Assembly: GCF_036971445.1 (NCBI RefSeq)
Contig: NC_091482.1
Coordinates: forward strand, 2,728,001 to 2,792,000
Source: Narcine bancroftii
Lineage: Eukaryota
Length of the DNA: 64,000 bases
Reading direction: 5' to 3'
The notes under the pieces are model-generated. The model did not search any database. It saw only the letters and a list, made by a program, of their open reading frames with translations, and had not been told where the DNA came from. Position 1 is the first letter of the stretch. Each line of letters begins with the position of its first letter. A program made the translations under genes and the position numbers. Positions 19,988-24,996 of this stretch are shown here, piece after piece.

Positions 19988-20325
19988 ATGGGGCTTCCTC
20001 CAGCTTCTCCTGCCTTCTACAATAGAACCGTTGGTGCTTTCAGTGGCCCTCAATGGCCGTACTTTGCCTCAAAGAGCACCTACATGGCTGTGGCCACTCT
20101 GATGGGTGTGGTGGTCCTCCTTTGTGAATGGCCTGGTCATCCTGGTGTCCATCAGGTACAAGAGACTTCGCTCACCCCTCAACTACATCCTGGTGAACCT
20201 GGCTGTGGCCAACCTGATGGTCACTGTCTTTGACAGCACCATCAGCTTCTCCAATAACCTCCACGGTTACTTCACCCTGGGGGAGGCCATATGTCAGTTC
20301 GAAGGCTTCATGGTGTCTCTGACAG
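19988..20325 (+). pseudogene. OPNP: Pinopsin exon 1 (frameshift at ~20117)
   Basis: First frame reads MGLPPASPAFYNRTVGAFSGPQWPYFASKSTYMAVATLMGVVV. The opsin continues in another frame as SFVNGLVILVSIRYKRLRSPLNYILVNLAVANL...CQFEGFMVSLT(G). Donor G|GTGGG. Confidence 0.9.
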
Positions 20326-20721
20326 GTGGGTGCTCCTAAGCTTTGGCTTGTCGCTGTGTGGGGATCTGCCCCTTCTGAGGTTCGTAATCTTGTGGGAGAG
20401 TTAGCTGAGGGATCCTGGTCTGAGCAGGAAGGAACTGTTTGGTCTCCCAGCCCTGTTCCATCATACATTAGGGTTAGGGTTAGGGTTGCCCAGGTCAACC
20501 ATCTGTTCCATTCCCATTCAACCATGTTTGGCACATGTTCCTGAAAGAGTGTGGAGGTGGGGCTAATCAGAGGGTTCTCTGGGGTGGTCATGTCTAAAGC
20601 AAGAAGGTCACGCGCCATCCTGATTGTCAGGTCGTCGGTCCTTCACATCCCTGGGTCTGGACCTGGAACTCTCTCCTTGCCCCGCAGCACCTTCACCAGG
20701 AGAAAGGCAGCGATCCCTATG

Positions 20722-20930
20722 GGTGGCACAGTTAGTGTAGCGGTTAGCCTAACACTATTACAGCACCAGCTACCCAGGTTAGAACTCGTCACTGTCTGTC
20801 AGGAGTTTGTACGCTCTCCCTGTATCTGTGTGGGTTTCTTCCCACCCTTCAAAACGTACCAGGGGTGTAGGTTAATTGGGTGTAATAGGGCACCATGGGG
20901 TCGTGGACCAAGAGGGCCTGTTACTGCGCT
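20722..20930 (+). mobile_element. tRNA-derived V-SINE (HE1-like) in pinopsin intron 1
   Basis: GGTGGCACAGTTAGTGTAGCGGTTAGC head and CTGTCTGTCAGGAGTTTGTACGCTCTCCC...GTGGGTTTC core. Other copies at ~16430-16600, 25100-25290, 35930-36090, 38190-38455, 39235-39470 and 58300-58500. Confidence 0.8.
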
Positions 20931-21423
20931 GCATTCATCATACATACTTGTGTAATAGTCCATCCCGTGTCAACTTCCCCATTTTGGCCCCGACCGCCCG
21001 TCCATCCAAGTTCCCCACACCCTGAATACAGACTCACCACCTGGTCCCGACCATCTGAACACTTGATGCCTCGAACGACGCAGGTACTCACCACGGTCAA
21101 AAGTATGAGTGGTGTAAAAATAGACACACCCCATCCCCCCCCCCCCGCAAATTTGACCCAAAAAACTCAACTATTACACGAGTATATGTGGTGTATGTGA
21201 CTTTATGTCTCCTGCCTTCTCAGGCATGGTCTAACTATGGTGCCCAGATCCTGTGAATGACACCTCCCCCGAGCTGCGGTATCATGAGCTGGAAGGGCCA
21301 ACGGCCTCATCCTGTCAGAGAGAGAGAAAGAGAAGGGGGGGGGGGGTTGGTTTCTGATTAGGACTTGGTCAGGCCGGCATTGGCTCTGGAGACTAAGATG
21401 TATGCTGTGTCCTTCCCGGCAAG

Positions 21424-21606
21424 GTATCGTGGGGCTCTGGCCTCTGGCCATCTTGGCCTTTGAGCGGTACATCGTGATCTGCAAACCCATGGGGAACTTC
21501 CGCTTCCAGCAGCAGCACGCCCTCGGGGGCTGTCTCTTTACCTGGCTCTGGTCGCTGGCCTGGTCCTCTCCACCCCTGTTCGGATGGTGCAGCTATGTCC
21601 CTGAGG
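21424..21606 (+). pseudogene. OPNP: Pinopsin exon 2
   Basis: (G)IVGLWPLAILAFERYIVICKPMGNFRFQQQHALGGCLFTWLWSLAWSSPPLFGWCSYVPE(G), with the ERY motif; AG/GT boundaries. Confidence 0.92.
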
Positions 21607-21914
21607 GTAAGTCTAGGTGCGACGCTTGGGAGGGACCCTCCCCTGCACCACACGTCCCTCGACAACTCCCGCAGGGGACACTGCTGGTCGGTGTCCTCTT
21701 GATTGTCTCACCACCTTCAGCTTCAACCTCCTTCCCTCAACACCCATGGGCAAACTTGTCTTGTATCCCCACAATCACCATCTTTGTAATCATTTTGTAC
21801 ATAACTCCAGCACATAACCACCCTGTTTCTTTCCCCCTACCTCAGCTGGTTCGACTGGTCCATTCTCCCATTGGTTTCCCCCTTCCTTGTTTCCATCCAT
21901 CACCTCAAAGACCA

Positions 21915-22755
21915 TTAGACACAGGAGCAAAAATAGGCTATTCGGCCCATCGAGTCTGCCCATCATTCAGTCATGAACTGATCCATTTCCCCACTCAGCC
22001 TCACTGCCCGGCCTTAAGTCTCTGCCTTAAATACCCACAATGACCCAGCCTCCACAACCACCTGTGGCAACAAATTCCACAGATTGGCTGAAGAAATCCT
22101 CCGCATCCCTGTTTTAAGCAGATGCCCCTCAATCCTGAAGTTGTACCCTCTTGTCCTAGACTCTCCCACCATGGGAAACAACCTTTCTCCATCGACTCTG
22201 TAAATGCCTTTCAACATTCAAAATGTTTCAATGAGATTCCCTCCCTCATTCTCCTAAATTCCAATGAGTTCAGGCCAAGAGCCATCCAACGCTCCTCGTA
22301 TGATAACCCTTTCATTCCTGAAATCATCCTTGTGAACCCTCTCCAATGTCAGCACATCCTTTCTCAAATAACGAGCCCAAAACTGATCACAATTCTCCGT
22401 GAGGACTCACTAGTGCCTTATAAAACCTTAGCATCAAATCCCTGCTTCTGTATTCTATTCCTCTTGAATTGAACTCCACAATCGCATTTGCCTTCTTCGC
22501 CTCCGACTCAACCTGCAAGTTTTCCTGCAGGCCGTCCTGGATGAGGACTCCCAGGTCCCTTTGCATCTGGGTATTTTCAATTTTATCCCCATTTAAAAAA
22601 TAGTCTGCCCGTTTATTTTTTCTACCAAAGTGCACGACTGTCCAGTTTCCATTATTATATTTCACTTGCCACTTTACCCAGCCTCCTGATCTGTCTAAGA
22701 CCTTCTGCAGCCTCTGAGTTTCTTCTCTACCTAACTTTGTATCATCTGCCCTTGT
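21915..22755 (-). mobile_element. CR1 LINE fragment in pinopsin intron 2
   Basis: Minus-strand LQKVLDR..W..KWQVKYN...VVHFGRKNKRADYFLNG...QRDLGVLI...KKANA...RGIEYRSRDLMLRFYKALV. Confidence 0.85.
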
Positions 22756-23148: not shown

Positions 23149-23289
23149 NNNNNNNNNNNNNNNNNNNNNNNNNNNNNNNNNNNNNNNNNNNNNNNNNNNN
23201 NNNNNNNNNNNNNNNNNNNNNNNNNNNNNNNNNNNNNNNNNNNNNNNNNNNNNNNNNNNNNNNNNNNNNNNNNNNNNNNNNNNNNNNNN
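23149..23289. other. Assembly gap (141 N) in pinopsin intron 2
   Basis: Run of N, ending 69 nt upstream of exon 3. Confidence 1.
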
Positions 23290-23358
23290 ATTTCCTGTTA
23301 TAGTACTGATGTGCAATTTGCTTTCATCGCTCAGGCGAGTTTCCTTTCTACTCCCCAG

Positions 23359-23504
23359 GGCTGCGGACGTCTTGTGGGCCCAACTGGTACACAGGTGGGA
23401 CCAACAACAACACCTACGTGGTCACACTGTTTGTCACCTGCTTCCTGATGCCCCTCAGCCTGATCGTCTTCTCCTACGCCAGCTTGCTAGTGGTCCTGCG
23501 AGCT
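23359..23504 (+). pseudogene. OPNP: Pinopsin exon 3
   Basis: (G)LRTSCGPNWYTGGTNNNTYVVTLFVTCFLMPLSLIVFSYASLLVVLRA; acceptor cccAG, donor GTGAGT. Not shown in this frame by the ORF track. Confidence 0.92.
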
Positions 23505-24172
23505 GTGAGTACAGTCAATCGTCCTGTTCCAGTGATCCATGCTCTACCGTTCTGTTTATGTGGACCCTCATCCTGAGTCAGCTGTAAAATGGGGGGGGGG
23601 GGGGTATACACCCCAGTATTTGTGGTAGTCTCTGGGTTAACAAGAACAAACTCAACCTCATTGGTCTGAAGCCAGTAAACCCCAGAGGGTGAGGGTACAA
23701 GTCCAGCCAAGGCAGGTTCAGAGCCTGATAACTGATCACAGGATGGAGTACGTGGCCACCTCCCTGCATTATTGAGATAGTTCACTGGTGTTCCTTGGGG
23801 CCACCGTGATTCCAGTCACACAGTCGTGTGTGCAGTGAGCTCCGAGTGTGACTGGAAGAGAGAGTGGAGAAAGTCACGGAGCAGAGCTGGGACTTCAGAA
23901 GTAGGAATTTTACCCCCGAGCAAACATTCTTTGATGTGGATTAATGCCATGTTTATCACTGTATTTAGTTTTCAACCCTAATGCAGTTGGTGTAGTAGTT
24001 GTATCACCACAGAATTGTGACCACTCATTTTAGGTCACACTTCAACCTCTGCCAACACCAGATCTGGAAGACCACCAGACACAAAGGACACTGTGAGCTC
24101 CCTCCACAGGGAGAAGTCCTCAGGAAAGGAGCAGAGGTCAGCTGGGGTGGATCTCTCTTGTTAACAGTGTAG

Positions 24173-24630
24173 AGGGAGCTTCACTCTGTGTCTGACCCCA
24201 GGAGTGTGTGGTGGGATGGTATGAAGGGAGCTTCACTCTGTGTCTGACCCCAGGAGTGTGTGGTGGGATGGTGTGAAGGGAGCTTCACTCTGTGTCTGAC
24301 CCCAGGAGTGTGTGGTGGGATGGTGTGAAGGGAGCTTCACTCTGTGTCTGACCCCAGGAGTGTGTGGTGGGATGGTGTGAAGGGAGCTTTACTCTGTGTC
24401 TGACCCCAGGAGTGTGTGGTGGGATGGTGTGAAGGGAACTTCACTCTGTGTCTGACCCCAGGAGTGTGTGGTGGGATGGTGTGAAGGGAGCTTCACTCTG
24501 TGTCTGACCCCAGGAGTGTGTGGTGGGATGGTGTGAAGGGAGCTTCACTCTGTGTCTGACCCCAGGAATGTGTGGTGGGATGGTGTGAAGGGACTATCAC
24601 TCTGTGTCTGACCCCAGGAGTGTGTGATGG
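24173..24630. repeat. 52-bp tandem minisatellite (GGGAGCTTCACTCTGTGTCTGACCCCAGGAGTGTGTGGTGGGATGGTGTGAA), ~9 copies
   Basis: Period of 52 measured directly (CTTCACTCTG at 24231 and 24283). Lies in pinopsin intron 3. Confidence 0.95.
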
Positions 24631-24756
24631 GCTTCATTTTGTGTGCAACTCCTGTCCTGGGAAAGTGTGCTGGGACACCGGTCCAGTCCTAGTGCTGTGA
24701 CCTAACATTGCCGAGTGCCAGTGAGAGTGAGTGAGCCGTGTCCCCTCTCTCCGCAG

Positions 24757-24996
24757 GTCGCGGAACAGCAGAAGGACAGCCAGAGTACGCAGCAGGCTGA
24801 GCGGGAGATGACCCGCATGGTGATCGCCATGATGATGGCCTTCCTGCTCTGCTGGCTCCCTTATGCCAGCTTTGCCATGGTGGTGGCCATTGACAAGGAC
24901 ATCAGGATTCAGCCAACCCTGACCTCTATGCCTTCCTACTTCTCAAAGACCGCCACCATCTACAACCCCATCATCTATGTCTTCATGAACCAACAG
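24757..24996 (+). pseudogene. OPNP: Pinopsin exon 4 (240 nt; retinal-binding Lys intact)
   Basis: VAEQQKDSQSTQQAEREMTRMVIAMMMAFLLCWLPYASFA...PSYFSKTATIYNPIIYVFMNQQ. K296-equivalent AAG at 24946-24948; NPxxY present. Confidence 0.92.

What the first reader, a model, noticed from the sequence alone, without database searches (positions are those of the whole stretch)
20211..24993. Radical substitutions at conserved opsin sites, including a natural G90D
Seen (bovine rhodopsin numbering, aligned by eye): D83N (AAC 20211), G90D (GAC 20232), S127P in TM3 (CCT 21441), V250M and V258M in TM6, and NKQ to NQQ, K311Q (CAA 24991). E113, C110/C187, ERY, K296 and NPxxY are retained. Established: G90D in rhodopsin causes constitutive activity and congenital night blindness; D83N is common in dim-light pigments; NKQ contributes to transducin coupling. 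Inference: this is independent support for relaxed selection. If G90D predates the frameshift, a noisy pigment may have favoured silencing.
Basis: partly seen in the sequence, partly recalled or inferred. Interest (0 to 1): 0.7.

Follow-up and report, generated by a model that had tools for sequence, protein, structure and literature searches.

The report
Broken pinopsin gene in electric ray
This is the only pinopsin (pineal light-sensor) gene found in an electric ray's genome, and it is broken by a frameshift that lies upstream of all the flagged amino-acid changes, so these changes, including the 'night-blindness' G90D, are likely ordinary decay after the gene stopped mattering, while D83N is shared with the intact pinopsins of other rays.

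Summary
All six codons are at the stated places and recur in sequencing contigs. The gene is the single pinopsin of an electric ray, with five GT-AG exons and a net 8-nt deletion in exon 1. D83N is not decay: 8 of 8 intact batoid pinopsins have N83. G90D, S127P, V250M, V258M, K311Q and an unlisted A288T are private: 6 changes at 149 constrained sites against 0-1 in other batoids, with a 2.4-fold longer branch, while rhodopsin is not accelerated. Relaxed selection is supported. G90D is not made as annotated: in the frame read after the deletion, the same base forms the stop TGA 20231-33 (81-residue product). The mRNA is still fully spliced in one run. The same genome has a broken opsin-3, only one TMT exon found and no VA opsin found, while RH1, RH2 and LWS exons are open. 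General loss of extraocular light sensing is likelier than a noisy pigment driving silencing; the order of G90D and the frameshift could not be tested.

The parts
19988..20325 (+). pinopsin exon 1 (coding part from the ATG), carries the frameshift
   Evidence: donor GT
20114..20120 (+). approximate junction of a net 8-nt deletion (residues about 49-52, TM1) relative to intact batoid pinopsins
   Evidence: frame change between P0005 and P0004; CDS 1042 nt; no gap in contigs of X1, X5, X6
20211..20213 (+). N83 (AAC), shared with intact batoid pinopsins; not decay
   Evidence: 8 of 8 batoids N, 13 of 13 sharks and chimaera D
20232..20234 (+). D90 (GAC) in the ancestral frame, private G90D
   Evidence: G in 119 of 119 homologues
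20231..20233 (+). premature stop TGA in the frame actually read after the deletion; overlaps GAC; product 81 aa; the next stop, TAA, is 8 codons on
21424..21606 (+). exon 2, with S127P (CCT 21441), D145N, ERY
23359..23504 (+). exon 3 (146 nt), with C187 and P189
   Evidence: its length equals the unlaid stretch of the X5 contig between exons 2 and 4
24757..24996 (+). exon 4, with V250M (24808), V258M (24832), A288T (24922), K296, NPIIY, K311Q (24991)
28008..28142 (+). exon 5 coding part to the stop, with C322W (28035) and a 4-residue in-frame gap in the tail
   Evidence: joint 24993 to 28005 GT..AG in X5
28143..28500 (+). 3' untranslated region, covered by the spliced contig, which runs past 28500

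Best explanation
This is a transcribed and spliced but frameshifted pinopsin pseudogene of an electric ray, and the radical changes other than D83N likely accumulated by neutral drift once pinopsin-based light sensing was no longer selected. Shown: single locus, frameshift in TM1, 81-residue product ending at a TGA that overlaps the D90 codon, spliced mRNA in one run, and an excess of changes at constrained sites. Inferred: most of the branch was under purifying selection (23 of 131 variable against 6 of 149 constrained sites changed), followed by a neutral stretch of about 0.018 substitutions per site; the mRNA would be a nonsense-mediated-decay target (stop 661 nt upstream of the last junction); the cause is likely a wider regression of extraocular photoreception in this lineage.
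For:: one pinopsin locus, next hits are RH1, RH2 and LWS; frameshift and stop; 6 of 149 constrained sites against 0-1; branch 0.14 against a mean of about 0.06 (2.4x), RH1 0.45-0.66x; relative-rate p < 0.05 in 8 of 10 non-independent pinopsin comparisons, and the ray's RH1 is significantly faster in none; 28 of 29 private changes need one base; 5 of 6 constrained hits are transitions; 0.63 in-frame stops and 0.3 splice-base hits are expected, so seeing none is unremarkable; opsin-3 has two frameshifts and in-frame stops; only TMT exon 1 found; no VA opsin orthologue (45 of 45 candidates scored).
Against: No DNA of intact relatives was available, so there is no dN/dS. The pinopsin-versus-RH1 contrast is significant in only 4 of 10 Fisher tests (others p = 0.054-0.09), and RH1 is a single control gene. 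Variable sites also carry about twice the changes of skates and stingrays (23 against 9-14; Pristis 1), so some lineage acceleration before loss is possible. All eight splice sites and transcription are kept. X5 and X6 may be tissues of the same animal as the assembly, so fixation in the species is not shown. The missing VA and TMT exons could be assembly gaps or withheld stretches.
Confidence: 0.85

Rival explanations
1. G90D arose first in a still-used pigment, made it noisy in the dark as it does in rhodopsin, and the frameshift was then selected as a suppressor.
For: G90 is invariant (119 of 119); E113 and K296 are kept; G90D rhodopsin makes strong dark noise (PMC11127052, abstract and opening paragraphs); pinopsin has low thermal noise and activates Gt (PMC6167363, passages). 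The a priori chance of this transition is only about 1%.
Against: It is one of six constrained-site hits and was picked after the fact. A dominant harmful allele would more likely be purged than fixed (inference). Opsin-3 is broken and VA and most of TMT are not found in the same genome. No test of G90D in pinopsin was found (0 papers with both terms).
Confidence: 0.04
2. The null allele is a polymorphism or limited to the sequenced animal, and the substitutions reflect a fast-evolving but still functional pinopsin in the species.
For: The samples may come from one animal; splice sites and transcription are intact; no in-frame stop in the ancestral frame.
Against: No second allele shows in any run that covers the junction (contigs only); six changes at sites nearly invariant across vertebrates, including a proline in TM3, sit on the same allele.
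Confidence: 0.06
3. The mRNA still yields a near-full opsin by +1 ribosomal slippage at the junction or by re-initiation (first in-frame ATG 20217, residue 85), so D90 is expressed at low level.
For: Spliced mRNA with an open downstream frame; a CUU-U run lies at the junction (its role as a +1 slippery motif is recalled, not from a call).
Against: Either product would lack part of TM1 or all of TM1 and half of TM2; decay at constrained sites downstream argues against a selected product.
Confidence: 0.03
4. Assembly or sequencing error.
For: None found.
Against: Short-read contigs of three samples match the deletion, and the codons match where covered.
Confidence: 0.01

Closest known systems
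Intact batoid pinopsins (Pristis pectinata, Leucoraja erinacea, Amblyraja radiata, Rhinoraja longicauda, Hypanus sabinus, Hemitrygon akajei, Mobula hypostoma, M. birostris)
   Same: 87-90% identity over the exon-1 piece for the five listed; N83, I122, P189, E113, K296, two-residue gap in extracellular loop 2
   Different: Net 8-nt deletion with early stop; six private changes at constrained sites, plus C322W
Pinopsin pseudogenes of crocodilians, grouse, ratites, falcons and penguins (PMC11893379, section 6 and supplement table S1)
   Same: Lineage-specific inactivation of pinopsin
   Different: All 7 chondrichthyan rows I read in table S1C keep pinopsin, as do the silver chimaera (PMC12952989, passage) and catshark (PMC11979771, passages); electric rays are not in that survey (Narcine 0, Torpedo 0 occurrences in the supplement text)
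G90D rhodopsin of congenital stationary night blindness (PMC11127052)
   Same: Same substitution at the homologous position, with E113 and K296 present in the ancestral frame
   Different: Different opsin subfamily; the codon is not read as Asp from the annotated start, since the same base forms the stop; no activity shown. This genome's own RH1 has G90

Membership tests
Pinopsin | Closest to named pinopsins; groups with batoid pinopsins | tested here: met
   tree separates batoids including this gene from sharks and chimaera with support 96; order within batoids unresolved
Pinopsin | I122 and P189 (PMC6167363) | tested here: met
Pinopsin | Two residues missing in extracellular loop 2 (PMC6167363) | tested here: met
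   gap against mammalian rhodopsin
Pinopsin | Five exons, with intron 2 shifted relative to visual opsins (diagnostic value recalled) | tested here: met
   exon 2 ends after YVPE, whereas the RH1 exon break of this genome lies before YIPEG
Pinopsin | E113 counterion and K296 | tested here: met
   (read-through frame only)
Pinopsin (functional gene) | Intact reading frame for seven helices | tested here: not met
   CDS 1042 nt, stop after 81 residues
Pinopsin (functional gene) | Blue-sensitive pigment (465-480 nm) that activates Gt | not testable with these tools
   needs expression
Pinopsin (functional gene) | Pineal or retinal expression | tested here: inconclusive
   spliced contig in X5; tissue and library not on record
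Pinopsin | Conserved flanking genes | tested here: inconclusive
   12 of 83 long frames of the window scanned with Pfam; no neighbour gene identified
Constitutively active G90D opsin | D90 in a translated full-length pigment | tested here: not met
   upstream frameshift; the base is part of the stop
Constitutively active G90D opsin | Raised dark G-protein activation | not testable with these tools
   needs expression assay
Unitary pseudogene | No intact second copy in the genome | tested here: met
   (97 of 97, 80 of 80, 20 of 20 candidates scored); the assembly may be incomplete
Unitary pseudogene | dN/dS near 1 after inactivation | not testable with these tools
   no DNA of relatives; protein-level proxy

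The most novel reading that the evidence does not exclude
G90D became fixed in a still-translated pinopsin of ancestral electric rays, produced dark noise as it does in human night blindness, and the exon-1 deletion spread as a suppressor: a natural gene loss driven by a gain-of-function allele.
Probability: 0.04. Interest if true: 0.7.

Novelty: new member of a known kind. Interest (0 to 1): 0.3.

Why it matters
The substitutions themselves are ordinary pseudogene decay. The locus has moderate value: in the surveys I could read, every cartilaginous fish keeps pinopsin, so this would be a first chondrichthyan loss there. It comes with a broken opsin-3, a TMT of which only exon 1 was found, and no detectable VA opsin, whose loss is reported as rare (three non-mammals, PMC11893379 section 5), while rod and cone opsins stay open. 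That gives a testable case of extraocular light sensing regressing apart from vision, like the crocodilian link between pineal loss and pinopsin loss (PMC12836464, passages). I recall old anatomical reports that Torpedo lacks a pineal organ; two searches listed no paper on this, so it is an unverified lead. N83 as a batoid-wide pinopsin trait is a small side result.

Tried and rejected
Search for exon-1 fragments of other electric rays: 3 hits, 70-74% identical, none close, so no ordering of mutations. Run X7 (organism B) holds a 193-nt contig at depth 2.8 identical to 20007-20199, beside an 11.9-kb contig at depth 61 that aligns at 89% over 20122-20221 only; I read the first as carry-over and do not count it as a relative sharing the deletion. 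No RNA holder is listed on record; X5, X6 and X8 are guesses, and X8 showed no cover of the exons. Raw reads were not available. D83N as decay: rejected. F49L: not counted, as it is the deletion junction; residues 49-52 were excluded from counts. The counts include single-exon fragments that run into introns, so the site counts cited for exons 2 and 4 come (78 of 120 hits of length 300-380 taken, 3 dropped for poor alignment). Atlas searches gave no useful names; names came. Pfam on 12 window frames found only an ALKBH8_N-like hit at 45400-46140. No structure prediction was run, as it could not test dark activity. Literature: pinopsin + electric ray 0 papers; G90D + pinopsin 0; Narcine + opsin 2 listed, one read by passages and not on this gene, one seen as a listing only; pinopsin + D83N 1, about eel rhodopsin. 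Most subscription papers are not searched. Earlier scan findings: none.

Full report
Observation. The window holds a five-exon opsin gene on the + strand: 19988-20325, 21424-21606, 23359-23504, 24757-24996 and 28008-28142, all introns GT-AG. The exon-1 piece hits named pinopsins best, Pristis pectinata at 90%. An RH1 exon from the same genome is 100% identical to the record named Narcine bancroftii rhodopsin, so the animal is an electric ray.

Reads. Contigs of the likely source run X1 and of run X5 match the frameshift, N83, D90, P127, M250, M258 and Q311 without a difference. X6 matches the frameshift, exon 2 and 24830-24996; its contig over D90 has one unplaced difference. These are contigs, not raw reads, and the samples may be tissues of one animal.

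The frameshift decides what is read. The coding exons total 1042 nt. Against relatives there is a net 8-nt deletion near residues 49-52. Read from the ATG, the product is 81 residues and ends at TGA 20231-20233. That stop overlaps the GAC of 'D90': the base that makes G90D in the old frame makes the stop in the frame now read. Without it the next stop lies 8 codons on, so the overlap has no force of its own, but it shows that D90 and everything downstream are not translated from the annotated start.

The gene is still transcribed. One 1202-nt contig in X5 covers exon 2 at record places 27-212, exon 4 at 358-594, and joins 24993 to 28005 across GT..AG. The unlaid stretch between exons 2 and 4 is 146 nt, the length of exon 3. 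The exon 4-5 joint is listed by the tool; the others are inferred from record positions. The DNA run X1 lacks the joint and the genome shows no second copy, so this is spliced RNA. The stop lies 661 nt upstream of the last junction, so decay by NMD would be expected (established rule, recalled). Tissue and level are unknown.

Which changes are decay. I aligned the read-through with 8 intact batoid, 13 shark and chimaera, and 75 bony-vertebrate pinopsins (78 of the 120 hits had length 300-380; 3 were dropped). N83 is in 8 of 8 batoids, 0 of 13 sharks and chimaera and 18 of 75 bony vertebrates: it is a batoid trait, not decay. G90, S127, V250 and V258 are in all 96; K311 in 94 (one R, one gap). 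Of 149 sites fixed at 95% or more in bony vertebrates and matched by the shark majority, this gene has changed six (G90D, S127P, V250M, V258M, A288T, K311Q); other batoids have 0-1, sharks 0-2. C322W is a further private change.

Rate. With two fixed topologies the root-to-tip length is 0.14, 2.4 times the mean of seven other batoids; for RH1 the ratio is 0.45-0.66. Relative-rate counts give p < 0.05 in 8 of 10 pinopsin comparisons. The pinopsin-versus-RH1 contrast is significant in 4 of 10 (others 0.054-0.09). The comparisons are not independent. Private changes are 6 of 149 at constrained and 23 of 131 at variable sites, against 0-1 and 9-14 in skates and stingrays and 0 and 1 in Pristis. 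Treating the six as neutral gives about 0.018 substitutions per site (95% 0.007-0.04). That predicts 0.63 in-frame stops and 0.3 hits on splice bases, so their absence is expected, and about a 1% chance of the specific G90D transition (kappa 2 or 4 assumed). This is a protein-level proxy, not dN/dS.

Is G90D special? In rhodopsin it causes strong dark noise; four night-blindness mutations are known (PMC11127052; abstract and opening paragraphs seen). Pinopsin has low thermal noise and activates Gt (PMC6167363; passages seen). A G90D pinopsin might therefore be noisy, but this is untested. The role of NKQ in transducin coupling is recalled, not from a call. A 1-2% coincidence chosen after the fact among six hits is weak. 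If selection relaxed before the deletion, G90D could well have come first by chance, without having caused anything. For it to drive silencing it would have to rise despite harm. No relative was found to order the events.

Context in the genome. Four searches found one pinopsin locus. RH1, an RH2-like gene and LWS show open exons (RH2 label by similarity and recall). Opsin-3 (query named) is single and broken: frameshifts in exons 1 and 3 and in-frame stops in exons 2 and 4. A TMT query found exon 1 only (102 of 371 candidates scored). A VA opsin query found no orthologue: best opsin hits were paralogues at 39-52% (106 of 314 scored) and 43-46% for an exon-sized piece (45 of 45 scored). These loci were not checked in reads, and absence may be an assembly gap. 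Together they point to a general relaxation of non-visual opsins.

Known and new. Pinopsin loss is known in crocodilians, several birds, caecilians, snakes, teleosts and mammals (PMC11893379, sections 5 and 6 and part 2 of 9 of the supplement read; PMC12836464, passages). The seven chondrichthyan rows I read there keep it, as do catshark (PMC11979771, passages) and silver chimaera (PMC12952989, passage). Searches found no report of this pseudogene; subscription papers and bioRxiv supplements were not searchable, and a genome annotation may already flag it.

Verdict. New member of a known kind; interest 0.3. The wider opsin loss is the better lead.

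Noticed in passing
L032:2212-4993 and 981-1142 (-), L045:1420-1695 (-); G000 C9 30.57-30.60 Mb: Opsin-3 (encephalopsin) gene with frameshifts in exons 1 and 3 and in-frame stops in exons 2 and 4; only copy found. Not checked in reads.
   Followed up: partly
G000, whole-genome search: No VA opsin orthologue found; VA loss is reported in only three non-mammals (PMC11893379).
   Followed up: partly
L034:8746-9042 (-); G000 C21 82.13 Mb: TMT-like opsin exon 1, open but divergent; other exons not found.
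   Followed up: partly
L031:4428-5990 (-); G000 C17 71.60 Mb: Degraded RH2-like copy with the exon 1-2 junction fused, likely a processed pseudogene.
   Followed up: no
window 19900-28500: The frameshifted gene is transcribed and spliced in run X5.
   Followed up: yes
window 20211-20213: N83 separates all 8 intact batoid pinopsins from all 13 shark and chimaera ones, a likely batoid-wide tuning or stability change; this ray's RH2-like gene also reads LAVAN at this site.
   Followed up: partly
window 24173-24631: 52-bp minisatellite, 8.8 copies, 97% match, in intron 3.
   Followed up: no
window 20690-21240 and 26310-27090: High-copy interspersed repeats in introns 1 and 4 (very deep cover); the intron-4 one reads like a LINE reverse-transcriptase fragment (recalled).
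   Followed up: no
window 20467-20487: Three telomere-type TTAGGG repeats in intron 1.
   Followed up: no
window 45400-46140 (-): Frame with a weak ALKBH8_N Pfam hit (E 3e-6), probably a retroelement remnant.
   Followed up: no
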